Assembly (NCBI GenBank): GCA_030167145.1
Contig: CP126532.1
Location: 1,470,001-1,502,000, forward strand
Length of the DNA: 32,000 bases
Source: Ktedonobacterales bacterium
Lineage (GTDB): Bacteria; Chloroflexota; Ktedonobacteria; Ktedonobacterales; JADMIN01
Direction: 5' to 3'
Made by a program: the position numbers and the translations under genes. Below the pieces are notes generated by a model. The model had not been told where the DNA came from. It did no database searches and saw nothing but the letters and a program-made list of their open reading frames with translations. How positions within the stretch are numbered: the first letter of the stretch is position 1; the number at the start of each line of letters is the position of its first letter. Below are positions 3,287-24,568 of this stretch, in pieces.

Positions 3287-4558
3287 TTACGGATAGTATG
3301 GCGGTGTCGGTGTATATTCCGTTGGCGCGTCCGGGTCGGCGGGCGGAAAGAGCGTCTGCCCCGTCGCGGGCGGGTACTGCCCTGGATAGGGGTTCGCCCC
3401 CGGCTGCTGATAGCTCCCGCCAGGATAGCCGCCAGGCGTGATCGGCCTGCTATACTGGCCCGCCGGTGTATTCGCGGGATACCCACTCCCTGGCGGTCCG
3501 GAGCCGCCGGGGCCACCCGACGGACCTGAGCCGCCCGATGGGCCGCCCGGTGTCGTGTTGCGTCCGCGTGCGATGACGAAGCCGATCAACCCCGCGATGA
3601 TCGCCAGCAGCAGCGCCGCCACCACCAACAGCGCGATCAACAGGCCATTGCCGCCACTGCTGCCTGCCGTGCCGCTCGTCCCGCCCGCCACCGCCGTCGG
3701 CGCCAGCGTCGGCGAAGCCGTTGCCGTCGGCTGGGGCGTTGCCGTCGGCGCCAGCGCCACCGTCAGCTTTGGCCCCTTATCCATCAGGTCCAGCACACCG
3801 CTCTCGTTGTGCGCGCTCACCACATACTGGCCCGGCGCGGTGTTCGCCGCGATGGGCAGCGTAATCGAGAACGCGCCGTTGCTCGCCGAGGTGGCGTTGC
3901 CGCTGGCGATGGGCGCGCCGTCGCAGTCCGCGCACGGACCAACATAGACGAAGATCTTGTCCTGCGCGGGCAGCCAGTTCTGGCCAGTGATCGTCACCGT
4001 GCCGCCTGCCGCGACACTCCCCGCCGAGATAGCGACCGAAGGCGAAACCGCCGACAGCACCGAGAACGGGCCGTCATCAATATTGCCGGTCGGCACACCG
4101 CCCGTGCCATACACGCAGAAGCTCCACAAGCCAGCGCTAGCGGCGTCAGGCCAATCAAACGAGTAGTCGAATTGCCCAGAGCTGTCCACCTGTCCTGAGC
4201 CAAGCGGCACAATGGGCGAGGCGGGCGCCATCTGGCAAAGCTGCGCGCTCGAAGAGCCACTTGGCGGATTGAGCGTATCCCCTGGCGCCACCGCGAATGT
4301 CACCTGCTGCCCCGCAACGGCAGTGAAGCCTTCACCATGCACCGCCGCATGCTCGCCCACCGGCCCTTCGGGATTGCCATTGTTCTGGCCCGCGTAGATC
4401 ATGCCAGAACTCCAATGGACACACCCATTCGCGCAGTTGCCGCCCGCGTGGACGGCTGGAATAGTGCGGGGAAACGCGATACCCCACGCCAGCAGCAGCG
4501 CCGCCAGCGCGAACGCCGCGCCGCCAAAGCGGACGAGGCGGAAAAAGTGCCGTCGCAT
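3287..4558 (-). CDS. Type I membrane protein, paralogue A (signal peptide, Cys motif, two Ig/IPT-like domains, TM helix, Pro/Gly/Tyr-rich cytoplasmic tail)
   Basis: 423-aa ORF. N-terminal signal MRRHFFRLVRFGGAAFALAALLLAWGIAFP, then GGNCANGCVHWSSGMIYAGQNNGNPEGPVGEH. IPT-like GGTVTITGQNWLPAQDKIFVYVG...PGQYVVSAHNESG. Thr/Pro linker, TM LLIALLVVAALLLAIIAGLIGFVIA followed by RGRN, then a tail rich in P, G, Y and Q. Clear paralogue of 4683-6062. Confidence 0.78.
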   Translation of the reverse strand: MRRHFFRLVRFGGAAFALAALLLAWGIAFPRTIPAVHAGGNCANGCVHWSSGMIYAGQNNGNPEGPVGEHAAVHGEGFTAVAGQQVTFAVAPGDTLNPPSGSSSAQLCQMAPASPIVPLGSGQVDSSGQFDYSFDWPDAASAGLWSFCVYGTGGVPTGNIDDGPFSVLSAVSPSVAISAGSVAAGGTVTITGQNWLPAQDKIFVYVGPCADCDGAPIASGNATSASNGAFSITLPIAANTAPGQYVVSAHNESGVLDLMDKGPKLTVALAPTATPQPTATASPTLAPTAVAGGTSGTAGSSGGNGLLIALLVVAALLLAIIAGLIGFVIARGRNTTPGGPSGGSGPSGGPGGSGPPGSGYPANTPAGQYSRPITPGGYPGGSYQQPGANPYPGQYPPATGQTLFPPADPDAPTEYTPTPPYYP

Positions 4559-4682: not shown

Positions 4683-6062
4683 TCAGCCGCCGTGCGTACC
4701 TGTCCGCCAGATACGCCAGCGTTTACCGGCCTGTGGCAACGTTGGTGGTGTGTTATAGCCGCCCGATGGCGTTGTCGCGCCGACATCCCCCACACCGTGT
4801 GGTGGCGTAATCGGCGGTGGCAGCGGCGCGTGGAGTGCGTTGAATTGCCCCGCGATAGTCTGGTCGTATGGGCCGGACATCTGCTGTTGTGGCGGGTAGC
4901 CAGGGTAGCCGCCGCTCGGCGTGAGCGGCCTGCCAAATGGGTCCACCGGCGTATTCGGCGAGGGTGGCGCGGGGAAGTTGCCCTGCGGCACACCAGCGCC
5001 GCCACCGCCCGATGGGCCGCGCGGCTTGTTGTTTCTGCCGCGTGCGATGAGGAAGCCGACCAGCCCCGCGATAATCACCAGCAGCAGCGCCACCGCCGCA
5101 ATCAGCACGATCAGCAGCGTGTTATCGCCGCCTGCGCCGCTATTCGATCCGCCACCATTCGCGCCCGTGCCGCCACCTGTTCCCGTCGCGGTCGCCGCGC
5201 TGGTGGCCGTGGGCGCGGTCGTCGCCGTTGGCTTCGGGGTTGGCGTCGGCAGATAGCCAACCGTCATCTTGGGTCCACTGCCGCCGATGTCCAGCGCGCC
5301 CAATTCGTTGTGCGCGCTCAAGATGAACTTGCCGAGCGGCGCGTTGCTGGGAATCGGCACCTTCACCGAGAAGCTGCCGTCGCTGGCCGACGTGGCAAAG
5401 CCGTAAGCCACCTGCACCCCGCCGCAGTTGGCGCACGCGGCGATATACACGAAGATCTTGTCCTGCGCGGGCAGCCAGTGCTGGCCCGTCACGGTGATCG
5501 AGCCGCCAGGCGGAACCGTCGTCGCCGAAGGCGAGATCGAGGGCGCATGCGACGACATCACCGTGAACGGACCATCGTCAATATTGCCGGTCGGCAAGCC
5601 ATCCACCGTGTTATACACGCACACGCTCCACTGTCCACTGCTCGCCGCCGACGGCCAGTCGAACTTGTAGTAAAACGTGCCGGAGAGATCCACCTGCGTC
5701 GTGCCGATGTCCACGCGCGTCGTATTCAGCTTGCAGAACTCATACGACGACCCGCCGCCCGATGGATTATTCACATCACCCTGCACCAGCCGCAGCCGCA
5801 CCGAACCTCCCAGCACGCCCGACATGGTGAATCCCTCGCCGGAGATGTTCGCATGCTCGCCGACCGGCCCTTCGGGGAACCCATTATTCTGCCCCGCGTA
5901 GATCATGCTCGCATCCCAGTGGACGCAGCCACTGCTACAACCGCCCGCCGCTTGGGCCACCGGCGCGGGGCGCGCGAACGCAAGACCCAGCGCCAGGACG
6001 AGAGATGCGAGCAGCAACGCCGCGCCGGCCAGGCGCGCGAGCCGTGATGATGATCGTCGCAT
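4683..6062 (-). CDS. Type I membrane protein, paralogue B (same architecture as 3287-4558)
   Basis: The ORF is open to 6158, but the ATG at 6062 gives MRRSSSRLARLAGAALLLASLVLALGLAFA, a signal peptide collinear with paralogue A. Shared blocks: GGCSSGCVHWDASMIYAGQNNGFPEGPVGEH, TGNIDDGPF, TGQHWLPAQDKIFVY, a TM helix plus RGRN, and a P/G-rich tail. A 31-nt DNA identity with paralogue A (acgaagatcttgtcctgcgcgggcagccagt) occurs at about 3948 and 5449. Confidence 0.78.
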   Translation of the reverse strand: MRRSSSRLARLAGAALLLASLVLALGLAFARPAPVAQAAGGCSSGCVHWDASMIYAGQNNGFPEGPVGEHANISGEGFTMSGVLGGSVRLRLVQGDVNNPSGGGSSYEFCKLNTTRVDIGTTQVDLSGTFYYKFDWPSAASSGQWSVCVYNTVDGLPTGNIDDGPFTVMSSHAPSISPSATTVPPGGSITVTGQHWLPAQDKIFVYIAACANCGGVQVAYGFATSASDGSFSVKVPIPSNAPLGKFILSAHNELGALDIGGSGPKMTVGYLPTPTPKPTATTAPTATSAATATGTGGGTGANGGGSNSGAGGDNTLLIVLIAAVALLLVIIAGLVGFLIARGRNNKPRGPSGGGGAGVPQGNFPAPPSPNTPVDPFGRPLTPSGGYPGYPPQQQMSGPYDQTIAGQFNALHAPLPPPITPPHGVGDVGATTPSGGYNTPPTLPQAGKRWRIWRTGTHGG

Positions 6063-6260
6063 AGGTTCCCCATTTCGCTGCCTGCGCCCGGATTCCTGGT
6101 GCGCGCTCGTATCCGCGGCTGACCGTGGCAGGGCATCCGCGCGGAGTAAACCGGACATGAAAACGAATCGCGCACAGTATAGCGGGTGCTGGCGAGGCAG
6201 GCAATGGGTGAGGCGCGGCGCTACGCACTATTTCTTAGCAGGGGACATGCGTGGGCGCGT

Positions 6261-7109
6261 TTAGCGCGCGAGGCGCACCTGCGCGGGGAAGCCATTGAAC
6301 GTGCCGCGCAACACTTCAGCGCCGTCCTGATTCAGGCAGCGGGCGCTGCCCGTCAGCAGCCGCTGCTCGGCATCCTTCGCGATGAACGTCACCGTGCAGG
6401 TGATCGTGTCGCCAATATAGACCGGCGCGACGTACTGAAAGCTCATCTCCTGCGCCAGAAAGCCGATCATGCCGCCGATGTGCGTCAGCATACTGCCGGT
6501 GAGCAGGCCAGGCACGATGCGCCTGCCAAACCACGTCTCTTGCGCAAAGCTCTCGTCAATGTGATAGGGGTTATAGTCGCCGGTCACGCCGCAGAATAGC
6601 GCCACATCGCCTTCGGTAAACGTGCGGCGGAACTCGAACGTCTGTCCCAGCGCAATCGCCTCGAACGCATCGCGCAGTTGCCGCTTGAACGCATCCGTCG
6701 CGTCACCCGCGCTTCTCGCCGGTGAATTCGCCGCTGCCGGAACTGCTGCCGGGGTTGCCGTCGTTGTTGTCGCCGTCGCTGCTGTGGGCGTCGCATCTAC
6801 GATCATCGTCGGGCGCGCCGTTTTGGGCTTCTGATCCGCCTGTGGCGGCAGCGGCGCCCAGCCATTCTCATCCCCGCGTACACCCGGAATCGCCCCACTG
6901 GACAGCAGCGCCTTCAACTCTGGCAGAGTCGCGAAGCGTCGCATCGGCTGTTGCGCCTGCTCCGCGCCGCCATAGCGGACAGAGATCGCATACTCGCCCG
7001 TGATGTCCTGATGTACGACAATCGCGCCCGCGCCAACCGGCAGAAACGCCGATGCCGCTGTAGCCAAAACACCATCGAGGGTCGCCACCTGCGCGCTCCT
7101 TTCACTCAT
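6261..7109 (-). CDS. MaoC-like (R)-hydratase hot-dog domain protein with an unknown N-terminal domain
   Basis: The C-terminal 140 aa, FTEGDVALFCGVTGDYNPYHIDESFAQETWFGRRIVPGLLTGSMLTHIGG...VYIGDTITCTVT, is a MaoC dehydratase signature. The N-terminal ~95 aa and the Thr/Ala/Pro linker are unassigned. Start is ambiguous: ATG 7109, or GTG 7088 which is preceded by AGGAG at a 7-nt spacing. Confidence 0.75.
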   Translation of the reverse strand: MSERSAQVATLDGVLATAASAFLPVGAGAIVVHQDITGEYAISVRYGGAEQAQQPMRRFATLPELKALLSSGAIPGVRGDENGWAPLPPQADQKPKTARPTMIVDATPTAATATTTTATPAAVPAAANSPARSAGDATDAFKRQLRDAFEAIALGQTFEFRRTFTEGDVALFCGVTGDYNPYHIDESFAQETWFGRRIVPGLLTGSMLTHIGGMIGFLAQEMSFQYVAPVYIGDTITCTVTFIAKDAEQRLLTGSARCLNQDGAEVLRGTFNGFPAQVRLAR

Positions 7110-7265
7110 CCCGCGCTGATAGCATAGCACAGCCGCCTACCATGCGTCCGTCGCGCATCGTACTCTTCCATTCGCGCGCCCCGTGTCGTACACTACGCCT
7201 GCAACCAACCCTGGCCCACGGTGGAGCGGCGTACTGTACCGGCGACGTCCCGTCGGCCTCTGCGC

Positions 7266-7476
7266 GTGGTGGCGCGGACATTCCTGTCTGCCCGCTGCTT
7301 TCTGTGGTGGGGCGGACATTCCTGTCTGCCCGCGTCGGCCACTTTCGTAGGGGCGCATGGCGTGCGCCCTTTGATGGACGCCTTTTCCTTGTTCCATCAC
7401 ATACTCTGTCTCCAACCCGCGACGGCGGGTTTCGTGGCCGCAGGCCTTCAGGCGCGATTTCAACCGCCCGCTCTCT
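7266..7476 (+). repeat. Composite hairpin-repeat module 1 (2x family B + family A variant + family C/C2)
   Basis: Family B: ggcggacattcctgtctgcc occurs twice, at about 7274-7293 and 7309-7331. Family A variant at 7347-7369: GGGCGCA-TGGCG-TGCGCCC. Family C at 7424-7441: AACCCGC-GACG-GCGGGTT, followed by ttcaggcgcgatttcaaccgcccgctctc. The module ends 22 nt before the TIR-FGE start codon. Confidence 0.85.
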
Positions 7477-7497
7477 GACGAAGGGGGAATCATCACC

Positions 7498-8832
7498 ATG
7501 TCCACACCCACCACACCCACCCACCGCACCGCCTTCATCAGCCACGCCCACGCCGACAACGCCCTCTGCGACCGCTACGTCGCCGCCCTCACCGCGCGTG
7601 GCCTCGACGTCTGGTACGACCGCACCAACGCCCAGATGGGCCACATGCTCGGCAACGAGATCCAGAGCCAGCTCGAGCAGCGTTCCGCCTTCGTCTTGCT
7701 GCTCACCCAGCATGCGCTCGACTCCTTCTGGGTCAATCTCGAAACCCAAACCTACCTCGGCCTCATGGCCCAAGACCGCACCCGCCTGCTTCTGCCCGTC
7801 CGTATCGGCCCCTGCGAAGTCCCCTCCATGCTCAACGCCTTCTTCTGGATAGACGCCCTCGCCATGCCCTTCGACCACGCCATAGACGCCATAACCTCCG
7901 CCCTCACCGTAGGGGCGTCCGGCGGACGCCCATCTGCCGCCGTGCCCTCGCCCACTGTAACGCCTTCCCCCACACCCGATCCTCTCCCCGCGCTTGGCCC
8001 CGCCCCCGCCCCGCGCGACGCCACCCCCGCGCTGCACCTCACCCCCACCTCACTCTACAACCTCGGCTTCCGCGGCTACAGTGTGCGCGGCGTCGAATGT
8101 GTCCTCCCACCACTCTGCCCCGTCCCTGGCGGCATCTTCACCATGGGCAGCGACAAGACCAAAGACCCCCAGGCACAAGATCGCGAGATGCCGCAGTATC
8201 CCGTCGAGGTTGGCTCCTTCGCCATCGGCCAGCATCCCGTCACTGTCGCCGAGTACGCCTGCGCCGTCCGCGCCAAAGTGGTCCGTGAACCGCCCGCGTT
8301 TGAATACGGTGGCAAGAAGACCGACTGGCAAACCCAACTGAAGCAGCCAGACCATCCCGCTATCTGCGTCTCCTGGCAGGACGCCGTCGCCTACCTGCGC
8401 TGGCTGGCGGGCGTCACCGGTCAGCCCTGGCGGCTGCCCAGCGAGGCCGAATGGGAGAAAGCCGCGCGTGGCGCGGACGGACGCCTCTACCCCTGGGGCA
8501 ACACCTTCGACAAGGCCCGTTGCAACACCAGCGAGAGCGGCATCGGCACGACCACCCCCGTCGGGCGCTATCCAACCGGCGCCAGTCCGTACAGCGCGCA
8601 GGACATGGCGGGCAACGTCTGGGAGTGGGTCAGCAGTCTCTACAAGTCCTATCCCTATAACAAAGCTGACGGGCGTGAAGACCAGAAATCTACTGATAAT
8701 CGGGTGCTGCGTGGTGGCTCATGGGCCGACGTTTCCAGGCTCGCGCGTGCGGCCGACCGCAACGAAGGCCGACCGGACTACTTCACCGACCTTAGGGGTT
8801 TTCGGCCCGCGTGGGCGGCGGCTGGTTCATAA
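7498..8832 (+). CDS. TIR domain - Pro/Ala/Thr linker - FGE-sulfatase (SUMF1/C-type-lectin-fold) domain fusion protein
   Basis: 444-aa ORF with SD AAGGGGGA at 7481-7488. N-terminal TIR_2-like motifs: TAFISHAHADN, LDVWYD, FVLLLTQHALDSFWVNLE (Glu82). C-terminal FGE-family motifs: GGIFTMGSD, HPVTVAEY, ICVSWQDAVAYLRWL, WRLPSEAEWEKAARG, YPWGN, QDMAGNVWEWV, RVLRGGSW. The FGE catalytic Cys pair is absent after RGGSW. Confidence 0.85.
   Translation: MSTPTTPTHRTAFISHAHADNALCDRYVAALTARGLDVWYDRTNAQMGHMLGNEIQSQLEQRSAFVLLLTQHALDSFWVNLETQTYLGLMAQDRTRLLLPVRIGPCEVPSMLNAFFWIDALAMPFDHAIDAITSALTVGASGGRPSAAVPSPTVTPSPTPDPLPALGPAPAPRDATPALHLTPTSLYNLGFRGYSVRGVECVLPPLCPVPGGIFTMGSDKTKDPQAQDREMPQYPVEVGSFAIGQHPVTVAEYACAVRAKVVREPPAFEYGGKKTDWQTQLKQPDHPAICVSWQDAVAYLRWLAGVTGQPWRLPSEAEWEKAARGADGRLYPWGNTFDKARCNTSESGIGTTTPVGRYPTGASPYSAQDMAGNVWEWVSSLYKSYPYNKADGREDQKSTDNRVLRGGSWADVSRLARAADRNEGRPDYFTDLRGFRPAWAAAGS
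7909..7931. repeat. Family A hairpin element located inside the TIR-FGE coding sequence (linker)
   Basis: gtaggggcgtccggcggacgccc is identical over 23 nt to the intergenic copy at 13207-13229. Here it is read in frame as VGASGGRP. Confidence 0.85.
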
Positions 8833-8906
8833 CGCAAATATGCTATTTTCTATTTTCTATGAATCGTCATTATGCGCGCATGTGTAGTGGGGATGGGCGA
8901 GTCTCC

Positions 8907-9012: not shown

Positions 9013-9519
9013 TTAGCCGGGGAAATCCGCTGCTAGCCCGTGTATGCCGAGGGTGAGCGAGAGTTCGCCGCCGTGGTGCAGGTCGTGCTCCATCACATGC
9101 CAGACGACCCAGGCGCGCGACAACTCGACTCGTTTGCCATCCCAGTCGTCGGGGAACGTTTGTCGCATCGCGTCAGGACTCCAGCGCGCCAGACAACCCG
9201 CCATCATGTGCCAGGTGTGGTCGAGGGCCTGGGCCAGCTCGGCGGCAGGTGGGATGGACGCCCCTGGCGCGAGCGCCGCCTCGTTCCAGCCCGCATACGC
9301 CTTCACCGCATCGCCGCCATCCTCGCCCAGGAACTCGGTGAACCAGAACATGCGGCACCCGACGATGTGAAGCGCAATCTCGCCGATGGAACGCAGCCCT
9401 GGCGCGGCGCGCAGCACGAGCTGCTCGGCGGTGAGCGGCGCAGCCGCCGCTTTGATGTGCTCCTGGTATGCCTGCCAGTTGCTATAGAACGTCGTCAGCG
9501 TGAAGGTGTCTTCAGCCAT
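9013..9519 (-). CDS. DinB family (DinB_2-like) metal-dependent four-helix-bundle protein
   Basis: ATG 9519 gives MAEDTFTLTTFYSNWQAYQEHI...LRSIGEIALHIVGCRMFWF...WVVWHVMEHDLHHGGELSLTLG. The His triad pattern and length (168 aa) are typical of DinB/YfiT-like proteins. The upstream in-frame extension to 9570 is unlikely to be translated. Confidence 0.8.
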   Translation of the reverse strand: MAEDTFTLTTFYSNWQAYQEHIKAAAAPLTAEQLVLRAAPGLRSIGEIALHIVGCRMFWFTEFLGEDGGDAVKAYAGWNEAALAPGASIPPAAELAQALDHTWHMMAGCLARWSPDAMRQTFPDDWDGKRVELSRAWVVWHVMEHDLHHGGELSLTLGIHGLAADFPG

Positions 9520-9652
9520 ATCGTCTCGTATCTCCTGGTGTGGCACGTCGCACCGCCACAGGGATGGCATACTGCCACGCGGGCGGCCACGCGCGTCGCG
9601 CTCCGTGAACGCAGATCAACGTAGCCGCATTCTACCCCACACCTTCGCCCCC

Positions 9653-9715
9653 GTGCTCCGACCATTCATGGCCGAGGCGGGCAATCGTGTGCTCCGGCCA
9701 TTCATGGCCGAGGCG
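9653..9715 (+). repeat. Two 27-nt direct repeats with a 36-nt period, each carrying a GGCCATTCATGGCC-type palindrome
   Basis: gtgctccgaccattcatggccgaggcg at 9653-9679 and gtgctccggccattcatggccgaggcg at 9689-9715, differing at 1 position. Confidence 0.85.
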
Positions 9716-9860
9716 CATTACCCCCATCCTCGCGTCCCCAAATGACCGCATCTGACCACCCCCACCCCCGCCGCACATCCCCCACCGCATGCTACACTAC
9801 CCCACAGCGGACCCATCCCCACCGCAAGGAGCACCCATACCCATGCAACTTCTGCCACAG

Positions 9861-9885
9861 GTGGGGCGGACATTCTTGTCTGCCC
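9861..9885 (+). repeat. Solo family B hairpin element
   Basis: gtggggcggacattcttgtctgccc matches the family B copies at 7309, 10364 and 13282. Confidence 0.8.
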
Positions 9886-9979
9886 ACCCACAAACATCAA
9901 AACATCGGCCACATAGGCCACTGGCGCATGTACCGCCAGCGTCTCGCTGGCAACTCCGGCATCTGCACTTTGCGATACC

Positions 9980-10338
9980 GAAAAATCGGCCATATCGGCA
10001 ACTGTCATCCATGTGCATATCAGCAACTGCGGCCACTCCAGCCACTCCAACCGAGATTACCCGTGGCATTCATGCTACGTCCTCGCCCTACCACCCATTT
10101 CGCCCCACGCGCAAATTGCGAAAAATCGGCAGAATCGGCAACTCTCGCACCCGTCACCATTGCGAAAAATCGGCAGCATCGGCAACTGCCATCTATGCGC
10201 GCCACATGCAATTGCGGCGAAAACGGCGAAAAATCTCCAGACAATTCGCGCCAATTCCGGTCATCTCCCCCACCATCCCGGCCATTCCGGCCATTCCGGC
10301 CATTCCGGCAACTGTGCAAATCGGCAGAATCGGCAACT
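9980..10338 (+). repeat. Dispersed/tandem ATCGGCA-N2-ATCGGCAACT direct-repeat field
   Basis: gaaaaatcggccatatcggcaact at 9980-10003. attgcgaaaaatcggcagaatcggcaact at 10115-10143. attgcgaaaaatcggcagcatcggcaact at 10159-10187 (44-nt period, 1 mismatch). gcaaatcggcagaatcggcaact at 10316-10338. The core GGCAACT also occurs at 9949 and 10306. Confidence 0.8.
10272..10307 (+). repeat. 9-nt tandem repeat (GCCATTCCG), about 4 copies
   Basis: accatcccg gccattccg gccattccg gccattccg. A related ggccattccggcc occurs at 10348-10360. Confidence 0.85.
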
Positions 10339-10363
10339 CCCGTCTGCGGCCATTCCGGCCACT

Positions 10364-10489
10364 GGTGGGGCAGACATTCCTGTCTGCCTGCCACCATTTC
10401 GGCCACAATCCCCGCTCTCTGCCCCAAACCCGCGACGGCGGGTTTCGCGGCGGCACCCCATTCAGGCGCGGTTTCAACCGCCCGCTCTC
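10364..10489 (+). repeat. Composite hairpin-repeat module 2 (family B + family C/C2)
   Basis: Family B: ggtggggcagacattcctgtctgcc at 10364-10388 (perfect GGCAGACA-TTCC-TGTCTGCC). Family C: ccaaacccgcgacggcgggtttcgcggc...ttcaggcgcggtttcaaccgcccgctctc at 10424-10489, roughly 85 percent identical by eye to 7422-7475. Confidence 0.85.
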
Positions 10490-10607
10490 CCATCCACTCC
10501 CACGCCACCCCTCCATCCGTGCGTACAATGCAACGTCACACAACATCGTCACCACAACGGCTGCTCATCCATCGAGCAACCCATTCCCCAACTATCAGGA
10601 GCGCACC

Positions 10608-13157
10608 GTGAAGATTCTGGGCCGCATGGCCGTCTTCCCTTCCATACCCGAACGCATCAGCCGCCTCCACGAGCTAGCCTACAACCTCTGGTGGACCTGG
10701 AACCCCGAAGCCCAGGCCCTCTACGCCACCATAGACCCCGACCTCTGGCAGCGGTCCGAACACAACGCCGTCCGTGTCCTCGTCGAGGCCCCCGCCGACC
10801 GGCTCACCACCCTCGCCGCCGACGCCGATTTCCTCGCCGCCTACGACCACGTCCTGCGCGACTTCGACGCCTACATGCGCCCCGAATCCACCTGGTTCAG
10901 CCGCACGTATCCCCAGTACCGCGACAAACCCATCGCCTACTTCTCCGCCGAATTCGGCATCCACGAATCCCTGCCCATCTACTCCGGCGGCCTCGGCATC
11001 CTCTCCGGTGACCACTGCAAAGAGGCCAGCGATCTTGGCCTACCCTTCGTCGCCGTGGGCTTCCTCTATCCTCAGGGCTACTTCCGCCAGCGCATCAGCC
11101 GCGACGGCCGCCAGGACGCCATCTACGAAAAGCTCAGCTTCTCGCAGGTTCCCGCCACCCCCGCCACCGACCCCGACGGCAACGAAATCATGGTCAGCGT
11201 AGACCTCCCCGGCCGCAGTGTCTACGCCAAAGTCTGGCGCATCCAGGTGGGTCGCATCCCCCTCTACCTCATGGATACCGATGTCGAGCCGAACGCTCCC
11301 AACGACCGCACCCTCTCCGCCCGGCTCTACGGCGGCGACCACGAGATGCGCATCGCCCAGGAGATCATGCTCGGCATTGGCGGCGTCCGCGCGTTGCGTG
11401 CCCTGCGTATAGACGCCATGATCTGGCACATGAACGAAGGCCATTCAGCCTTCCTTGGCCTGGAACGCTGCCGCGAGCTGGTGCATGGCCTCGGCGTAGA
11501 CTTCTCTGTCGCCCGCGAGATCGTCGCCGCCAACGCCGTCTTCACCACCCACACCCCCGTCGCCGCTGGCAACGATGTCTTCAACTTCGACCTGATTGAC
11601 AAATACTTCGGCGACTTCTGGCCCCAGCTTGGCCTCGACCACGACGCCTTTCATGCCCTCGCCGCCCAGCAGACCGGCTGGGGCATGGGCTTCAGCATGA
11701 CCGTGCTGGCGCTGCGTATGGCCAGCCAGCGCAACGGCGTCAGCCGCCTCCACGGCGATGTCTCGCGCAAGATGTGGCATCCGCTCTGGCCCGACCTCGA
11801 TGTAGACGAAGTGCCGATCACCTCCATCACCAACGGCGTCCATACCGCCACCTGGCTTGCTCCGCGCCTGGACGGCCTCTATCAGCGTTATCTCGCCCAG
11901 GACTGGTATCAGCGCCTGGACGACCCCGAACTCTGGGCCAACATCAACGACCTACCCGACGCCGATCTCTGGCAGGCGCATCAAGAGATGAAAGACGCCC
12001 TCATCGCCTATGCCCGCGAACGCCTCGCCCGCCAGCGTGCCCGCGTCGGTGAGGGTGTCGCCTCGCTCCGCGCCGCCCAGCGTGCGCTCGATCCCAACGC
12101 GCTGATCCTCGGCTTCGCGCGCCGCTTCGCCACCTACAAGCGCGCGACCTTGCTTTTCCGCGACCCCGAGCGCCTCGCCCGGCTGCTCAGCAACCCGGAG
12201 CGCCCGGTGCGCATCGTCTTCGCCGGCAAAGCCCACCCCGCTGACAAACCCGGCCAGGATTTCATCCAGCGCGTCTACCAGTTCTCGCGCATGCCCGAAT
12301 TTGAGGGCAAGATCGTTTTCCTCGAAGACTACGATATTGACATGGCGCGCCATCTGGTCGGCGGCTGCGATGTCTGGCTCAACACCCCCATTCGCCCGCA
12401 TGAGGCCAGCGGCACCAGCGGCCAGAAAGCCAGCCTCAACGGCATCCCCAACCTCAGCATCCTCGATGGCTGGTGGGAAGAGGGCTATAACGGCCACAAT
12501 GGCTGGGCCTTCGGCGAGCGCCGCGAGTACGTGGACGACAACACCCGCGATGAAGCCGACGTCAGCGCGCTCTATGACCTGCTGGAGCGCGAAGTCGTGC
12601 CCCTCTTCTTCGACCGTGGCCCCGACGGCATCCCCCACGGCTGGCTCGCCGTAATGAAAGAAGCCATCCGCACCTGCGCCCCCCAGTTCAGCATGCGCCG
12701 CATGGTCAAAGACTACGTCAACGACCTCTACATCCCCGCGCTGCTGCTCGGCCAGCGCATAGACGCCGATAACTACCAGCAGGCCCGCGAACTGGCGTCC
12801 TGGAAACAATCGCTCCTGCCCGCGTGGGAGCGGGTCGCCCTCACCGTCGAAGGTCCGCGCGAGGGACGGCTCGCCATCGGCCAGCCGGTGCGCCTCACCG
12901 CGCTCGTGCGCCTCGGCGACCTCACGCCCGACGATGTGCGCGTCGAGCTGATCGCCGGGCGCGACGACGACGGCGTGCTGCGCGACCATCAGATCCTGCC
13001 GATGGAGCGCGAAGGCAATCCCGACAACGGCGTTTATTACTACGGCGGCCAGCTTGCGCCCGCCACCAGCGGCAGCCTGGTCTACGGCGTCCGCATCGTG
13101 CCACATCATACCGGCCTGCCCCACGCCTACGAAATTGGTCTCGCCCGCTGGGCCTAA
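10608..13157 (+). CDS. glgP: Alpha-glucan (glycogen/maltodextrin) phosphorylase, DUF3417-type GlgP
   Basis: GTG 10608 is preceded by AGGAG (10597-10601); the next in-frame ATG is 10626. N-terminal ISRLHELAYNLWWTWNPEA is a DUF3417 signature. Other motifs: YFSAEFGIHESLPIYSGGLGILSGDHCKEASDLG, FAGKAHPADKPGQ, and EASGTSGQKASLNG (PLP-Lys region). About 849 aa, as expected. The 273 codons open upstream (9789-10607) are repeat DNA, not coding. Confidence 0.92.
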   Translation: MKILGRMAVFPSIPERISRLHELAYNLWWTWNPEAQALYATIDPDLWQRSEHNAVRVLVEAPADRLTTLAADADFLAAYDHVLRDFDAYMRPESTWFSRTYPQYRDKPIAYFSAEFGIHESLPIYSGGLGILSGDHCKEASDLGLPFVAVGFLYPQGYFRQRISRDGRQDAIYEKLSFSQVPATPATDPDGNEIMVSVDLPGRSVYAKVWRIQVGRIPLYLMDTDVEPNAPNDRTLSARLYGGDHEMRIAQEIMLGIGGVRALRALRIDAMIWHMNEGHSAFLGLERCRELVHGLGVDFSVAREIVAANAVFTTHTPVAAGNDVFNFDLIDKYFGDFWPQLGLDHDAFHALAAQQTGWGMGFSMTVLALRMASQRNGVSRLHGDVSRKMWHPLWPDLDVDEVPITSITNGVHTATWLAPRLDGLYQRYLAQDWYQRLDDPELWANINDLPDADLWQAHQEMKDALIAYARERLARQRARVGEGVASLRAAQRALDPNALILGFARRFATYKRATLLFRDPERLARLLSNPERPVRIVFAGKAHPADKPGQDFIQRVYQFSRMPEFEGKIVFLEDYDIDMARHLVGGCDVWLNTPIRPHEASGTSGQKASLNGIPNLSILDGWWEEGYNGHNGWAFGERREYVDDNTRDEADVSALYDLLEREVVPLFFDRGPDGIPHGWLAVMKEAIRTCAPQFSMRRMVKDYVNDLYIPALLLGQRIDADNYQQARELASWKQSLLPAWERVALTVEGPREGRLAIGQPVRLTALVRLGDLTPDDVRVELIAGRDDDGVLRDHQILPMEREGNPDNGVYYYGGQLAPATSGSLVYGVRIVPHHTGLPHAYEIGLARWA

Positions 13158-13206: not shown

Positions 13207-13414
13207 GTAGGGGCGTCCGGCGGACGCCCTCTACGCGGTTGATGCACCTTCACAAATTGATGCCTGTATACTCTCGCCGCTGGTGGGGCAGACATTCCTG
13301 TCTGCCACCGTGCCCCAAGCCACGACGGCGGGTTTCGCGGCGACACGCCATCCGTAGGGGCGTCCGGTGGACGCCCGCCGCGCGCCCTGCTCCCCTTCCC
13401 TGGTAGGGAAGGGG
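13207..13414 (+). repeat. Hairpin cluster / composite module 3 between convergent glgP and clpP (A, B, degenerate C, A, D); probable bidirectional terminator region
   Basis: Family A at 13207-13229, family B at 13282-13306, degenerate family C at about 13312-13340, family A at 13354-13376, and family D CCCCTTCCC-TGGTA-GGGAAGGGG at 13392-13414. The cluster fills nearly all of the 278-nt gap between two converging stop codons. Confidence 0.8.
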
Positions 13415-22884: not shown

Positions 22885-23037
22885 CCTGCACATTCTGCCA
22901 CTCACGCACGCTGCGACACGCCATCACTGGTTCCCGTATCGAGGGACTGGTGGTGGCGTGTTCGTTCATCATTGGCGCACATTCGGGCGCGGGTAATGCG
23001 CCCAGGCGCGCGGGAGGCAAATGCCCATTGACGTGGC

Positions 23038-23066
23038 CCGCTTGCCCATGTACGCTTGTTTTGTGT
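23038..23066 (+). promoter_or_regulatory. Possible promoter for the EXORDIUM-like gene
   Basis: TTGACG (23038-23043), a 17-nt spacer, then TACGCT (23061-23066). Confidence 0.25.
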
Positions 23067-23199
23067 TGTGATATGCCACCTCGGTGCTGCGCCCGTCACA
23101 ATGGTGGAGGTCGCAAGCAGGGAGCTTACGGGAGGTGCGGTATCGCGACCCAGTGATGTGCCGTGTAGTGGATGTTGGCAGGCAAATGGGAGGTCTATC

Positions 23200-24207
23200 G
23201 TGTTCGCAAAGAGCCGAAAGCGCGTCCTTGCGGTGGGCGCAGTGATCACGGCCTGTGTCGCGTTGCTGGTCGTCTGGGCGACGGTCCCGGTCGGCGCGAC
23301 GCCATTGAGCGCGGATAACACGCTGGCGGCGGGGACGCCGCACATGTTGAAGGTGCATCACGCCGGCGATGCGCTGCCGGGCGCAGGTGTACCCCTGACG
23401 TACCATAAGGGCAAAGTGATGCAGGCGCAGGAGATCAGCTATGCGATCTTCTGGGAGCCGTCGAACCTGCAAAACGGCAACGCGACTCAAGTCAGCCCGA
23501 CGTACAACAGCCTGCTCAAGCAGTACCTCGGCGATGTGGGCGGCAATGGGCTGTACAACAATAACACCCAGTATTACCAGGTCGTCAGCGGAGCCAAGAA
23601 GTTCATCATCAACAAGTCGTCGTTCGGCGGCGCCTGGGTGGATACGTCCGCATATCCGGCGTCTGGCTGCACCGATAGCGCCACGCCGGGCAACTGCGTG
23701 ACCGACCTGCAAATTCAGGCCGAGGTGGCCAAGGCCATCTCCACCAAGGGCTGGAGCGCGGGACTGACACACATGTTCTTTGTCTTCACCTCGTCTGGCG
23801 AAGGCTCGTGCTTCGATGGCTCCAGCACCACCTGCGCGTTCACAGACTATTGCGCGTACCACAACTACTACACCAACACCAGCGGCCACCCGGTGATCTA
23901 TGCCAATATGCCCTACACCGGCACGTCGCTCGCTGGCTGCGGTGTCTCGAAGTCACCCAACAACGACGTCGCCGCCGACAGCACCATCAACGTCACCAGC
24001 CACGAGCAGATGGAAGCCGTCACCGACCCACGGCTCAACGCCTGGTACGATTCCAGCGGCGCGGAGATCGGCGACAAGTGCGCGTGGAACTTCGGCACGC
24101 TGAGCTACGACGGCGGCAAGGCCAACGAGAGTTGGAACGGCCACTTCTACATCCTGCAGCAGGAGTGGGACAACTCCACGGGCGGCTGTGTTCAGGCCGG
24201 GCCATAA
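23200..24207 (+). CDS. Exported PHI-1/EXORDIUM-like (phosphate-induced protein 1 family) protein
   Basis: GTG 23200 is preceded by GGGAGG (23188-23193). Signal/anchor VFAKSRKRVLAVGAVITACVALLVVWATVPVGA. Blocks LTYHKGKVMQAQEISYAIFWEP, MFFVFTSSGEG..C..YCAYHN, SPNNDVAADSTINVTSHEQMEAVTDP and GDKCAWNFG are collinear with plant EXO blocks as I recall them (YHKGALL..ISINLIWYG, VVLTSADV..C..CGSHG, PNNDVGLDGMVINLA...TNP, SACTGVYG). The family call needs an HMM check. Confidence 0.62.
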   Translation: MFAKSRKRVLAVGAVITACVALLVVWATVPVGATPLSADNTLAAGTPHMLKVHHAGDALPGAGVPLTYHKGKVMQAQEISYAIFWEPSNLQNGNATQVSPTYNSLLKQYLGDVGGNGLYNNNTQYYQVVSGAKKFIINKSSFGGAWVDTSAYPASGCTDSATPGNCVTDLQIQAEVAKAISTKGWSAGLTHMFFVFTSSGEGSCFDGSSTTCAFTDYCAYHNYYTNTSGHPVIYANMPYTGTSLAGCGVSKSPNNDVAADSTINVTSHEQMEAVTDPRLNAWYDSSGAEIGDKCAWNFGTLSYDGGKANESWNGHFYILQQEWDNSTGGCVQAGP

Positions 24208-24243
24208 TCCAACCCATCCCTGGCGCTTCGTATGAGCGCATGT

Positions 24244-24287
24244 GGCCGACTCCAACCGTGTCGTTGGGTTCGGCCATTTTGTTTTGT
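24244..24287 (+). terminator. Rho-independent terminator after the EXORDIUM-like gene
   Basis: GGCCGACTCCAAC-cgtgtc-GTTGGGTTCGGCC forms a 13-position stem with 1 mismatch and 1 G-T pair. It is followed by ATTTTGTTTTGTG. Confidence 0.6.
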
Positions 24288-24412
24288 GCCGCTTTCCCTT
24301 ATCACGAATCACGAACAATACTCGCGACCTCGATAGTTTAGAAAGTACAGAGCATTCTCCGCACGATATGAAGCATTCTCGCAAGTGAAATGCAGCAACC
24401 GTGAAGAACAAA

Positions 24413-24441
24413 TTGACAGACGCAGGCAAGAAGTGTATGCT
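24413..24441 (+). promoter_or_regulatory. Sigma-70-like promoter upstream of the heptamer tract and exported-protein gene
   Basis: TTGACA (24413-24418), a 17-nt spacer, then TATGCT (24436-24441). It sits in a locally AT-richer stretch. Confidence 0.4.
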
Positions 24442-24534
24442 CTGCGACAGAGCGGTAAAAGCTCGTCCAGCGGTGTGCTGGATTGTCAGGTCATCATGGG
24501 CATCTCTAGAGAAACGGAAGTGGAGGTATCCTAT

Positions 24535-24568
24535 GGCGTTGGGCGTTGGGCGTTGGGCGTTGGGCGTG
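24535..24568 (+). repeat. Heptanucleotide tandem repeat (GGCGTTG) x4 plus a partial fifth unit
   Basis: Full units at 24535-24541, 24542-24548, 24549-24555 and 24556-24562, then ggcgtg. The tract starts at the last base of an SD-equipped ATG (24533). Confidence 0.9.

What the first reader, a model, noticed from the sequence alone, without database searches (positions are those of the whole stretch)
7498..8832. Stand-alone TIR - linker - FGE/SUMF1-fold fusion: candidate single-gene sensor/effector (immune-like) protein
One uninterrupted 444-codon ORF with its own SD has three parts. (i) An N-terminal TIR_2-type domain (TAFISHAHADN, LDVWYD, FVLLLTQHALDSFWVNLE), with Glu82 at the position where NAD-cleaving TIR domains carry their catalytic Glu. 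(ii) A ~70-aa Pro/Ala/Thr linker. (iii) A C-terminal FGE-sulfatase/C-type-lectin-fold domain (HPVTVAEY, ICVSWQDAVAYLRWL, WRLPSEAEWEKAARG, YPWGN, NVWEWV, RVLRGGSW). The Cys pair that makes true formylglycine-generating enzymes catalytic is missing after RGGSW (the sequence reads ADVSRLARAADRN), so this domain looks like a binding module rather than an enzyme. TIR domains are the NAD-consuming effectors or signal generators of Thoeris, TIR-STING, TIR-SAVED and related bacterial immune systems. FGE-like domains are recurrently fused to death/effector domains such as cyanobacterial orthocaspases and have been proposed as ligand sensors in conflict systems. No ThsA, SAVED, STING, Argonaute or other known TIR partner lies within 5 kb on either side, so any immune role would be self-contained. 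The context looks accessory: the gene is divergent from a MaoC gene across 390 bp of repeats, is bracketed by same-orientation composite repeat modules (7266-7476 and 10364-10489), and is followed by a strikingly AT-rich patch. I know of no named defence system with this TIR + non-catalytic FGE architecture.
Basis: partly seen in the sequence, partly recalled or inferred. Interest (0 to 1): 0.72.

Follow-up and report, generated by a model that had tools for sequence, protein, structure and literature searches.

The report
TIR effector fused to DGR-type lectin sensor
This gene encodes a cytoplasmic protein that joins a TIR "NAD-cleaving" effector domain to a non-enzymatic lectin-like binding domain, and relatives (including one in the same genome) have that binding domain rewritten by a mutagenic retroelement, so it is a probable but untested member of an already predicted class of immune-like sensors, not a new kind.

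Summary
ORF 7498-8832 encodes 444 aa with a TIR_2 domain (E=3e-19), a short disordered linker and an FGE-sulfatase/C-type-lectin-fold domain (E=8e-52). Glu82 aligns with the catalytic Glu of solved bacterial TIR NADases and is invariant in 91 homologues. The FGE Cys pair is absent.

Two relatives (55-59% identical) have template/variable repeat pairs whose mismatches fall almost only at template adenines. The source genome has a full DGR (TIR-TPR-FGE target, RT, bAvd, template) about 465 kb away. The window gene's most variable loops coincide with the variable repeat. It mismatches the only template found at 26 of 90 non-adenine sites, so it has not been rewritten recently.

The surroundings are housekeeping genes and the "bracketing" repeats are dispersed intergenic elements. 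TIR+FGS proteins and DGR-diversified lectin sensors were already catalogued computationally in 2020-2024. Function is untested. Verdict: new member of a known, predicted kind.

The parts
7484..7490 (+). Shine-Dalgarno-like AGGGGGA, 8 nt before the ATG
   Evidence: Read from the sequence.
7498..8832 (+). Complete gene, 444 aa, for a TIR-linker-FGE/C-type-lectin-fold protein. Identical to P0001 of a Ktedonobacterales MAG, at contig position 1,477,498-1,478,832.
   Evidence: No hydrophobic segment or signal peptide (maximum Kyte-Doolittle value over 19 residues is 1.19), so it is predicted to be cytoplasmic.
7534..7863 (+). TIR_2 domain, residues 13-122 (the fold extends to about residue 137)
   Evidence: Pfam E=3.3e-19. 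PADLOC SAVED_TIR and ThsB models match this part only. The AF2 domain model has pLDDT 89 and pTM 0.84. Foldseek top hits are all TIR domains: SARM1, SPARTA, RUN1, and AbTir with TM 0.76.
7741..7743 (+). Codon of Glu82 in the W78-V-N-L-E82 motif at the start of helix 77-92: the putative catalytic Glu
   Evidence: Aligned with the Glu of 'WTNYE' in AbTir, 'WPQKE' in PdTIR and 'WPARE' in BtpA/TcpB. Invariant in alignments A1 (91 sequences) and A2 (23 sequences).
7909..7992 (+). Disordered Pro/Ala/Thr/Ser/Gly linker, residues 138-165
   Evidence: pLDDT 46-55. 79% of residues are P, A, T, S or G. Highest sequence entropy and only 18-43% identity among the in-genome paralogues.
7993..8118 (+). Conserved, ordered beta-strand extension preceding the FGE-like domain, residues 166-207
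   Evidence: pLDDT above 90 with strands at 175-177, 192-196 and 199-203. Low entropy of 1.26. Nearly invariant L189, G190, G198, P204, P205 and C207.
8119..8811 (+). FGE-sulfatase (FGS / C-type-lectin fold) domain, residues 208-438, lacking the FGE catalytic Cys pair
   Evidence: Pfam E=7.9e-52. Foldseek hits: ToxD 7spq, CalU17, EgtB, FGE, pFGE, PvdO and the DGR variable protein TvpA 2y3c. NCBIfam EgtB, PvdO and SenA scores are far below their cut-offs.
8704..8829 (+). Variable-repeat-like segment (residues 403-444), homologous to the confirmed DGR variable repeats of relatives. It contains the two most variable loops of the folded protein (about 410-418 and 422-433).
   Evidence: Aligns in register with the variable/template repeat pairs of L086, L088 and L091. 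Entropy peaks here. Against the in-genome template, 18 of 29 adenine sites but also 26 of 90 non-adenine sites are mismatched.
8815..8829 (+). 15-mer GCGGCGGCTGGTTCA resembling a DGR homing site (IMH), formed by the last codons of the gene
   Evidence: The exact 15-mer occurs only at the 3' ends of TIR-FGE genes in 1.07 Mb of fetched DNA: the window, L091, L086, L090 and L003. L002 has it with 1 mismatch, and there is one unrelated 1-mismatch hit in L039. The template repeats read GCGGCGGATGATYCAGCG instead.
8833..8860 (+).
   Evidence: Window 8815-8860 against L091 9976-10021 is identical at 43 of 46 positions, after which similarity ends. The 22-mer TATGCTATTTTCTATTTTCTAT occurs only at these two loci among all fetched DNA.

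Best explanation
The gene encodes a soluble cytoplasmic two-domain sensor-effector. Its C-terminal FGE-fold domain is not an enzyme. It is a C-type-lectin-type ligand-binding module of the kind that diversity-generating retroelements (DGRs) rewrite. Its N-terminal domain is a TIR domain that keeps the catalytic Glu of NAD-cleaving TIRs.

The gene is one of at least three stand-alone paralogues in a Ktedonobacterales genome, which also holds a fourth, longer TIR-TPR-FGE gene that is the direct target of a complete DGR. The window copy is best read as a fixed, 'off-line' member of this DGR-derived receptor repertoire. It keeps the variable-repeat layout and the homing-site-like 3' element, but its sequence shows no recent rewriting from the only template found.

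Inferred mechanism:
1. The variable loops at the C-terminal end of the lectin-like domain bind a non-self, probably multivalent, ligand such as a phage or other invader protein or glycan.
2. Binding clusters the protein. The flexible linker of about 28 aa lets the TIR domains assemble into the composite active site that TIR NADases need.
3. NAD+ is consumed or a signal nucleotide is made, arresting or killing the cell.

Shown here: the domain identities, Glu82 equivalence and invariance, absence of the FGE Cys pair, the position of hypervariability, DGR targeting of relatives, the DGR in the same genome, the shared 3' element, and the lack of partner genes. Inferred only: ligand binding, clustering, NADase activity and an immune role.
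For: Domains: Pfam TIR_2 and FGE-sulfatase. The full-length model has pLDDT 92.

Catalytic Glu: aligned with the Glu of five solved bacterial TIR sequences and invariant in the family.

Non-enzymatic FGE-like domain: no Cys pair, and scores far below the cut-offs of EgtB (93 against 360), PvdO (100 against 500) and SenA.

Position of variability: within folded parts, the most variable stretches include 410-418 and 422-433. The in-genome paralogues are 17-33% identical at 422-433 against 62-74% in the FGE core.

DGR targeting of relatives: in L088 the TIR-FGE gene is followed by an RVT_1 gene, and 11 of 13 template/variable repeat mismatches fall at template adenines. In the syntenic L086, 18 of 20 do.

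DGR in the source genome: L091 holds a TIR-TPR-FGE target, an RT, bAvd and the template. Against its own variable repeat, 13 of 20 adenine sites and 2 of 82 other sites are mismatched.

Window gene: it differs from the templates preferentially at adenine sites (18/28 against 17/79 for L086; 18/29 against 26/90 for L091), whereas the two templates compared with each other show no such bias. The 46-nt 3' element is identical at 43 of 46 positions to the DGR target's flank and is specific to these loci.

Stand-alone nature: ten loci were examined and no partner gene recurs. One pair lies in tandem on an integrative element (L087).

The published framework for lectin-fold FGS sensors placed C-terminal to TIR or caspase effectors in multicellular bacteria is in PMC7159879, PMC8195603 and PMC10907252.
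Against: No biochemical or phenotypic data exist for any member of this family.

The gene and most paralogues sit among housekeeping genes, not in defence islands, and PADLOC finds no defence gene in the 32-kb window.

The family contains syntenic orthologue pairs (L003 with L090, L086 with L088), so it is partly inherited vertically.

The window copy fails the accepted criterion for an active DGR target, which is identity to the template at all non-adenine sites. It has 26 of 90 mismatches there.

The bias toward adenine sites could arise from ordinary divergence in binding loops.

There is no oligomerisation module such as a STAND NTPase or SAVED domain, so the activation step is conjecture. 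Inter-domain geometry in the model is uncertain (pTM 0.68).
Confidence: 0.55

Rival explanations
1. The window gene is a currently active remote DGR target. Its C-terminal loops are still being rewritten in trans, either by a second template repeat elsewhere in the 5.07-Mb genome or inefficiently by the L091 element, using the intact homing-site-like 3' element.
For: The 15-mer and the 28-nt non-coding flank are nearly identical to those of the DGR's own target (43 of 46 positions). They are conserved far better than the adjacent coding sequence, which suggests selection on a cis-acting site. The RT and bAvd genes are intact in the genome. Trans-acting DGRs and remote variable proteins are documented in PMC10907252 and PMC7517822.
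Against: 26 of 90 non-adenine sites differ from the only template found. No template or RT lies in the 32-kb window, nor near P0002 or P0017. The protein's 90%-identity cluster has a single member, so no variants are visible. A second template could not be searched for, because the source contig is not in the scannable collection.
Confidence: 0.15
2. The protein is a sensor-effector, but not for anti-phage defence. It would act in self/non-self or kin recognition, in developmental programmed cell death, or in signalling within the mycelial, multicellular life cycle of Ktedonobacteria.
For: The setting is housekeeping genes and orthologues are partly syntenic. There are several paralogues per genome. 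The cyanobacterial DGR literature proposes regulatory or signal-transduction roles for TIR-, kinase- and caspase-C-type-lectin variable proteins (PMC7517822). That Ktedonobacteria are filamentous and sporulating comes from my own knowledge.
Against: DGR-driven hypervariation of a receptor is easier to explain by an arms race with rapidly changing ligands. One tandem pair rides on an integrative element beside a methyltransferase and an Mrr_cat-ParA gene (L087). Known bacterial TIR NADases with the catalytic Glu are overwhelmingly defence or toxin effectors (my own knowledge).
Confidence: 0.2
3. The FGE-like domain is an enzyme: a ToxD-, CalU17-, PvdO- or EgtB-like oxidative or tailoring activity on a small molecule or peptide. 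The TIR domain would serve only as an oligomerisation or regulatory module.
For: The best sequence and structure matches are biosynthetic proteins: ToxD 7spq (E=1.9e-34), then CalU17, EgtB and PvdO. The source annotations read 'SUMF1/EgtB/PvdO family nonheme iron enzyme'. A DinB gene lies next door (9013-9570), and EgtB is a DinB+FGE fusion.
Against: The Cys pair of FGE is absent. There is no DinB domain in the protein, and the DinB neighbour is convergent and not conserved at the other loci. All curated enzyme models score far below their cut-offs. The site equivalent to the FGE active-site loops is the least conserved part of the domain and is the DGR variable repeat in relatives, which is incompatible with a fixed catalytic site. 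The TIR catalytic Glu is invariant.
Confidence: 0.06
4. The gene is a decaying relic of a former DGR target with no present function.
For: No cognate template is known and the variable-repeat-like segment has diverged from the template. The DGR's own variable repeat in L091 carries an 18-nt gap pattern that suggests decay or assembly noise.
Against: The 444-codon ORF is intact in a 65% GC genome. All invariant and near-invariant family residues are retained, including Glu82 and the structural residues of the FGE fold. The model is confident at pLDDT 92, and a Shine-Dalgarno sequence is present.
Confidence: 0.04

Closest known systems
DGR-diversified C-type-lectin/FGS 'antigen sensor' proteins of multicellular bacteria (Kaur et al. 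2020, 2021; Dore et al. 2024; Vallota-Eastman et al. 2020)
   Same: A C-terminal FGE-fold lectin domain with the variable repeat in its last ~40 residues, an effector (TIR) N-terminal to it, and several copies per genome in a filamentous lineage. Relatives and an in-genome paralogue are demonstrable DGR targets, with RT and bAvd present. A two-domain 'TIR+FGS' gene next to an RVT gene is listed in the Kaur 2021 source data.
   Different: Most described cases include a STAND or NACHT NTPase, a vWA-MoxR ternary system or EAD adaptors. This protein has none and no conserved neighbour. The window copy has no cognate template within 32 kb and does not match the genome's known template at non-adenine sites. 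The Ktedonobacterales expansion was not found in the literature searched.
Bacterial TIR NADase effectors (AbTir, PdTIR, BtpA/TcpB; ThsB of Thoeris; TIR-SAVED; SPARTA TIR-APAZ)
   Same: TIR_2 fold and the W-x-x-x-E motif with the catalytic Glu. The TIR portions of PADLOC SAVED_TIR and ThsB models match.
   Different: There is no ThsA, SAVED, CD-NTase or Argonaute partner in the window. The matches cover only the TIR part. The sensor is fused directly to the TIR domain, and activity is untested.
Stand-alone TIR+NPCBM lectin fusions of actinobacteria (Kaur et al. 2021)
   Same: The same minimal logic: a TIR effector plus a C-terminal lectin-fold putative invader sensor, often as a lone gene, in a multicellular lineage.
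   Different: A different lectin fold (NPCBM rather than FGE/C-type lectin), and no DGR link has been reported for NPCBM.
STAND/Avs/bNACHT pattern-recognition receptors with FGE-sulfatase-like sensors (Nature 2026, PMC13581612)
   Same: An FGE-sulfatase-like domain used as the C-terminal sensor of an immune effector protein.
   Different: Those proteins oligomerise through a STAND NTPase, and none is present here.
True formylglycine-generating enzymes and their enzymatic relatives (SUMF1, EgtB, OvoA, PvdO, ToxD, CalU17)
   Same: The same fold, 27-34% identity and conserved structural core motifs such as GNVWEW and RGGS.
   Different: There is no catalytic Cys pair and no DinB iron-binding domain. 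The active-site-equivalent loops are hypervariable.
DGR variable proteins Mtd (Bordetella phage BPP-1) and TvpA (Treponema denticola)
   Same: A C-type-lectin/FGE fold that carries the variable repeat at its C-terminal end. TvpA 2y3c is a significant structural match (E=4.7e-15).
   Different: Those are surface or tail-fibre proteins without an effector domain. This protein is cytoplasmic and fused to a TIR domain.

Membership tests
TIR domain NADase (Pfam TIR_2, PF13676) | Profile match above the curated threshold | tested here: met
   70 bits against a cut-off of 28, E=3.3e-19, residues 13-122.
TIR domain NADase (Pfam TIR_2, PF13676) | Flavodoxin-like TIR fold | tested here: met
   The domain model has pLDDT 89. 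The top 50 Foldseek PDB hits are all TIR domains, with TM up to 0.76 to the AbTir filament 7uxu.
TIR domain NADase (Pfam TIR_2, PF13676) | Catalytic Glu in the W-x-x-x-E motif at the start of helix alpha-C | tested here: met
   E82 aligns with the Glu of AbTir 'WTNYE', PdTIR 'WPQKE' and BtpA/TcpB 'WPARE'. It lies at the start of helix 77-92 and is invariant in 91 and 23 homologues. That this Glu is the catalytic residue in those proteins is from my own knowledge. Residue-level 3D superposition was not available.
TIR domain NADase (Pfam TIR_2, PF13676) | NAD+ cleavage, or production of cADPR isomers, upon self-association | not testable with these tools
   Needs a biochemical assay.
Formylglycine-generating enzyme (SUMF1/FGE) | FGE-sulfatase fold | tested here: met
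   Pfam E=7.9e-52. Foldseek gives FGE structures at E of about 1e-17 to 1e-19.
Formylglycine-generating enzyme (SUMF1/FGE) | Copper-binding catalytic Cys pair (human C336/C341) | tested here: not met
   In the alignment to 2afy/2aft the corresponding stretch reads W-A-D-V-S-R-L-A-R, with no Cys.
EgtB/OvoA/SenA sulfoxide or selenoxide synthases | N-terminal DinB-type iron-binding domain fused to the FGE-like domain, and a score above the curated cut-off | tested here: not met
   There is no DinB domain in the protein. NCBIfam scores are EgtB 93 against 360, SenA 89 against 420 and OvoA 55 against 400.
DGR variable protein (target of a diversity-generating retroelement) | C-type-lectin/FGE fold with a variable repeat at the C-terminal end | tested here: met
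   Window 8704-8829 aligns in register with the confirmed variable repeats of L086, L088 and L091 and holds the family's most variable loops.
DGR variable protein (target of a diversity-generating retroelement) | DGR-type RT and accessory Avd encoded in the same genome | tested here: met
   L091 carries RVT_1 (P0264/P0172, with an IGNQTSQ motif) and bAvd on the same 5.07-Mb contig, about 465 kb away.
DGR variable protein (target of a diversity-generating retroelement) | A template repeat identical to the variable repeat at all non-adenine positions | tested here: not met
   Against the only template found (L091 11699-11818), 26 of 90 non-adenine sites differ. No other repeat of 8600-8832 exists in the window, L001 or L002. 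The rest of the genome could not be searched.
DGR variable protein (target of a diversity-generating retroelement) | Homing-site (IMH) sequence at the 3' end of the variable repeat that differs from the template's IMH* | tested here: inconclusive
   The 15-mer GCGGCGGCTGGTTCA plus the 28-nt flank match the in-genome DGR target at 43 of 46 positions, while the templates read GGATGATYCAGCG. Its function as a homing site is not demonstrated.
DGR variable protein (target of a diversity-generating retroelement) | Population-level hypervariation restricted to adenine-templated sites | not testable with these tools
   Needs read mapping from the source sample. The protein's 90% cluster has one member.
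Thoeris (ThsA + ThsB) | ThsB-type TIR protein encoded next to a ThsA (SIR2/Macro-SLOG) effector | tested here: not met
   Only partial ThsB model hits, over the TIR part. No ThsA-like gene among the window ORFs.
STAND (Avs/bNACHT) receptors with an FGE-like sensor | Central STAND NTPase domain | tested here: not met
   There is no NTPase domain. Residues 138-207 are a linker plus a beta extension.
FGS lectin-sensor conflict systems of Kaur et al. 2020/2021 | Effector domain always N-terminal to the FGS domain | tested here: met
   TIR at 13-122 and FGS at 208-438. The syntax is stated in PMC7159879.
FGS lectin-sensor conflict systems of Kaur et al. 2020/2021 | Linkage to a regulatory NTPase, a vWA-MoxR ternary core or EAD adaptors | tested here: not met
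   None in the protein or in the ten loci examined.

The most novel reading that the evidence does not exclude
This Ktedonobacterales lineage may keep a small 'germline repertoire' of minimal, NTPase-free TIR receptors. In this reading the binding loops were written by a DGR and then fixed as separate paralogues. Each copy keeps the homing-site-like 3' element, so it can be re-addressed by the retroelement. That would combine antibody-like diversification with gene-duplication archiving in a two-domain protein that is activated simply by ligand-induced clustering.
Probability: 0.15. Interest if true: 0.8.

Novelty: new member of a known kind. Interest (0 to 1): 0.45.

Why it matters
Lectin-fold (FGS) sensors fused to TIR or caspase effectors and diversified by retroelements have been proposed as an adaptive-immunity-like layer in multicellular bacteria. 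No member has been tested experimentally. This family offers the simplest possible version: 444 aa, two domains, no NTPase and no partner gene. One genome holds both a live DGR-linked copy and fixed paralogues. That makes it a tractable system for two questions: whether ligand binding by a hypervariable lectin domain can switch on a TIR NADase directly, and how DGR-written receptors are retained. For annotation, the public names for these proteins ('nonheme iron enzyme', 'GldJ', 'ToxD', 'formylglycine-generating enzyme') are misleading.

Tried and rejected
1. Mobile-cassette reading of the flanking repeats. Rejected: the same repeat units occur at 13287-13337 and at unrelated places in L001, L002 and L091.
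2. Defence-island context. Pfam and PADLOC scans of the window's ORFs found only housekeeping genes and a generic HTH protein.
3. A local DGR. No template-like copy of 8600-8832 and no RT lie in the window, L001 or L002.
4. Genome-contig scan with the family alignment. It did show one Methylococcaceae locus (L014) matching residues 13-438 at 32% identity.
5. Homology search with the TIR module alone. It returned only short TIR-only proteins or fragments of the same lineage, so it gave no evidence that this TIR clade is shuffled onto other sensors.
6. Metagenome scan for a cognate second template, using an adenine-free 23-mer. It gave two unrelated chance hits, and the source contig is not in that collection.
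7. Literature on ToxD structure and function, and on TIR domains in Ktedonobacteria. Nothing useful is held in the library.
8. DinB neighbour as a split EgtB. Rejected, because the neighbour is convergent and not conserved at other loci.
9. MaoC adjacency, seen in the window and again in L004/L005. Noted but not pursued; it is probably coincidence or weak residual synteny.
10. The exhaustive representative-protein search was not run, because that library has no taxonomy or context and could not answer the open questions.
Full report
**1. Observation**

The 444-codon ORF at 7498-8832 (+) is real and uninterrupted, and an AGGGGGA Shine-Dalgarno-like site lies 8 nt upstream. Pfam assigns TIR_2 to residues 13-122 (E=3.3e-19) and FGE-sulfatase to 208-438 (E=7.9e-52), both far above the gathering scores. 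No hydrophobic segment or signal peptide is present, so the protein should be cytoplasmic.

An AlphaFold2 model built on 91 homologues is confident, with mean pLDDT 92. It corrects the anatomy. Only residues 138-165 or so are disordered.

**2. The two domains**

*TIR.* phmmer alignments to solved bacterial TIR proteins place W78-V-N-L-E82 on 'WTNYE' of AbTir, 'WPQKE' of PdTIR and 'WPARE' of BtpA/TcpB. That is the W-x-x-x-E motif whose Glu is catalytic in NAD-cleaving TIRs; the catalytic role is from my own knowledge of those proteins. Glu82 is invariant in 91 full-length homologues and in 23 TIR-only relatives. It lies at the start of helix 77-92. A model of the domain alone (pLDDT 89) matches only TIR structures in the PDB, including SARM1, SPARTA TIR-APAZ, RUN1, MyD88, BtpA and the active AbTir filament at TM 0.76. 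PADLOC models (SAVED_TIR, ThsB, TIR-pAgo) match only the TIR part.

*FGE-like domain.* The nearest solved relatives are ToxD (7spq, E=1.9e-34), CalU17, EgtB, FGE, pFGE, PvdO and, more distantly, the DGR variable protein TvpA. The copper-binding Cys pair of true FGEs is absent. There is no DinB iron domain as in EgtB, and all curated enzyme models score far below their cut-offs. So it has the fold without the known catalytic equipment.

**3. Family and context**

The protein is identical to a protein of a Ktedonobacterales MAG on a 5,069,607-bp contig. The window gene lies at contig position 1,477,498-1,478,832. The same contig encodes two more full-length paralogues: P0002 (73% identical, about 23 kb away) and P0017 (66% identical). 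More than a hundred TIR_2+FGE proteins were returned, and nearly all the named ones come from Ktedonobacterales. Variants include TIR-FGE-FGE, FGE-FGE and TIR-(about 300 aa)-FGE. One Methylococcaceae locus also matches across both domains, at residues 13-438.

In ten loci examined no neighbouring gene recurs, so the genes are stand-alone units. Most sit among housekeeping genes. In the window the neighbours are ScpB, TruB, MaoC, DinB, glucan phosphorylase, PurD, ArgJ and ArgD, and PADLOC finds no defence gene. Two pairs of loci are syntenic between genomes: L003 with L090, and L086 with L088. One locus (L087) has a tandem pair on an integrative element with a serine recombinase, an excisionase-type HTH, DUF3987, a DNA methyltransferase and an Mrr_cat-ParA gene.

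A third copy lies at 13287-13337, and others lie at unrelated sites of the same genome.

**4.

Within the folded parts of the protein, the most variable stretches are 267-275, 410-418 and 422-433. The three in-genome paralogues are only 17-33% identical at 422-433, against 62-74% in the FGE core. These C-terminal loops correspond to the FGE active-site loops and to the position of the variable repeat (VR) in DGR targets.

In L088 (P0032, 59% identical to the query) an RVT_1 gene directly follows the TIR-FGE gene. A 125-nt repeat links the gene's 3' end (VR) to a copy downstream of the RT (the template repeat, TR). Of 13 mismatches, 11 fall at TR adenines. In the syntenic L086 (P0047, 55% identical), 18 of 20 do. 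The TRs are rich in AAC codons. This is the diagnostic DGR signature.

A search with the L088 RT found a 67%-identical RT on the source contig. Its locus, L091, holds a complete DGR:
- an 824-aa TIR-TPR-FGE target gene;
- the RT, which carries an IGNQTSQ motif that I recall as typical of DGR RTs;
- a bAvd accessory gene;
- a TR at 11699-11818.

Against its own VR, this TR is mismatched at 13 of 20 adenine sites and at only 2 of 82 other sites. This DGR lies about 465 kb from the window gene.

**5. Status of the window copy**

Window 8704-8829 aligns in register with these VRs and TRs.

| Template compared with the window | Adenine sites mismatched | Other sites mismatched | p |
|---|---|---|---|
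| L086 TR | 18 of 28 | 17 of 79 | 6e-5 |
| L091 TR | 18 of 29 | 26 of 90 | 0.0015 |

The window therefore differs from the templates preferentially at adenine sites, whereas the two templates compared with each other show no such bias. However, a 29% mismatch rate at non-adenine sites fails the accepted criterion for a current target, which is identity to the TR at all non-adenine sites (PMC10907252). The adenine bias can also arise from ordinary divergence of binding loops.

No TR or RT lies within the 32-kb window. A second TR elsewhere in the genome could not be searched for.

Set against this, the last 15 coding nt (GCGGCGGCTGGTTCA), the stop codon and the next 28 non-coding nt match the 3' flank of the L091 target gene at 43 of 46 positions, after which similarity stops. 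The 22-mer occurs only at these two loci in 1.07 Mb of fetched DNA. The exact 15-mer occurs only at the 3' ends of TIR-FGE genes, while the TRs carry GGATGATYCAGCG there. This is what a conserved DGR homing site (IMH) plus downstream element would look like, but its function is not shown.

My reading is that the window gene is a fixed paralogue of a DGR-written receptor family. It is possibly still addressable by the retroelement, but it has not been rewritten recently.

**6. Mechanism**

Shown:
- a TIR domain with an intact, invariant catalytic-type Glu;
- a flexible linker of about 28 aa;
- a lectin-fold domain whose ligand-site loops are hypervariable and are DGR-written in relatives;
- no partner genes;
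- a cytoplasmic location.

Inferred: the variable loops bind a non-self, probably multivalent, ligand. Clustering brings the TIR domains together to form the composite NADase site. NAD+ depletion or a nucleotide signal then arrests the cell.

This follows the published model for FGS and NPCBM lectin sensors fused to TIR or caspase effectors in multicellular bacteria (PMC7159879, PMC8195603, PMC10907252) and for STANDs with FGE-like sensors (PMC13581612). It differs in lacking any NTPase switch.

The rivals are an active remote DGR target, a developmental or kin-recognition role, an enzymatic FGE-like domain, and a decaying relic. They are weighed in the rival section.

**7. Comparison with the known, and novelty**

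The architectural class is already catalogued. The Kaur 2021 source data list a discrete 'TIR+FGS' gene next to an RVT gene and a TIR+nSTAND1+FGS gene. They also list many TIR+nSTAND1+FGS proteins and many stand-alone TIR+NPCBM genes. TIR-containing DGR variable proteins are reported in Thiohalocapsa and in cyanobacteria.

I did not find any description of the Ktedonobacterales expansion, or of the fixed paralogues that retain the homing-site-like flank. No member of the class has been tested experimentally.

The protein is not a formylglycine-generating enzyme, an EgtB, a Thoeris system or a STAND receptor, because it fails a defining feature of each. It is a TIR_2 protein with NADase hallmarks, and a member of a DGR-target family that does not meet the TR-match criterion itself.

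**8. Verdict**

It is a new member of a known, predicted kind. Interest is moderate at 0.45, mainly because it is the simplest available test case for the proposal that hypervariable lectin sensors can drive a TIR effector.

Noticed in passing
window 7259-7476, 9851-9885, 10355-10489, 13287-13337; also L001 3128 and 18222, L002 9369, L091 7198-7494 and 12217-13412: A family of composite intergenic repeat units (GGCGGACATTCCTGTCTGCCC, AACCCGCGACGGCGGGTTTCG, TTCAGGCGCGATTTCAACCGCCCGCTC), all on the same strand in the window and lying in front of several unrelated genes. They look like REP/MITE-like dispersed elements of this genome. Gene callers translate them into spurious ORFs containing 'GRTFLSA' or 'WGGHSCLP'.
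   Followed up: partly
window 9571-10580: An intergenic region of about 1 kb upstream of the glucan phosphorylase gene is packed with other short repeats: five copies of a 38-nt unit (CGAAAAATCGGCAGNATCGGCAAC...) between 9898 and 10351, a 9-nt tandem CCATTCCGG at 10273-10308, and a 27-nt pair at 9653-9715. Their function is unknown.
   Followed up: no
L091 9860-9993 compared with 11699-11818: The DGR's own variable repeat in the source genome carries gaps totalling 18 nt relative to the template (1+15+2), giving a locally frame-shifted stretch that returns to frame. This could be real decay of the target or a consensus artefact from assembling a hypervariable population.
   Followed up: no
L087 6560-9305 and its flanks: Two TIR-FGE genes lie in tandem on what looks like an integrated mobile element, with a large serine recombinase, an HTH_17 excisionase-like gene, DUF3987, an N6_N4 DNA methyltransferase and an Mrr_cat-ParA fusion. 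This is the only context seen with a defence-island or mobile-element flavour.
   Followed up: partly
L086 9354-10004: In the locus syntenic with L088 the RT gene is missing, but the template repeat survives inside a 216-aa called ORF whose translation reads '...VLRGGSWNNDSQNTRAAYRNDNRRDNFNNNEGFRLARAADD...'. This is a template without a local RT, so the variable repeat there must have been written in trans or before the RT was lost.
   Followed up: partly
window 9013-9570 (-); L002 3323-3916: A DinB-family gene is convergent with the TIR-FGE gene, and another DinB gene lies 6 kb from paralogue P0017. EgtB enzymes are DinB+FGE fusions, so this could mislead annotation. The pairing is not conserved at the other loci, so it is probably coincidence in a DinB-rich genome.
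   Followed up: partly
window 6261-7130 (-); L004/L005 9611-10096: A MaoC-dehydratase gene lies next to the TIR-FGE gene both in the window (divergent, with a 160-aa N-terminal extension) and beside homologue P0019 in another genome (same strand, 161 aa). Orthology of the two MaoC genes was not checked.
   Followed up: no
window 22969-26275: A lower-GC stretch (55-60% against about 65% elsewhere) holds three ORFs of 306, 345 and 207 aa with no Pfam or PADLOC hit. It is possibly horizontally acquired.
   Followed up: no
window 20677-22884 (+): A 735-aa Lon-like protein (AAA_32, LonB AAA-lid, LonC helical and Lon_C domains, all weak) with no PADLOC match. It may be a LonC-type or otherwise atypical Lon protease.
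   Followed up: no
window 3287-4558 (-) and 4683-6158 (-): Two adjacent large proteins have weak MG2/TIG (Ig-like) hits. The second has a long Pro/Thr/Gly-rich region and a hydrophobic stretch, so they are probably cell-surface proteins.
   Followed up: no
L002 11523-12491; L004 14832-15875: HTH_11-WYL(-WCX) regulator genes lie close to two TIR-FGE genes: immediately downstream and convergent for P0017, and 5.5 kb downstream for P0019. WYL regulators are often linked to defence loci, which I state from my own knowledge. The association was not tested statistically.
   Followed up: no
public annotations of P0001, P0002 and relatives: Source names for this family are 'DUF323', 'GldJ', 'toxoflavin biosynthesis protein ToxD', 'formylglycine-generating enzyme required for sulfatase activity' and 'SUMF1/EgtB/PvdO family nonheme iron enzyme'. 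None fits a TIR-fused, Cys-less, DGR-type lectin domain.
   Followed up: yes
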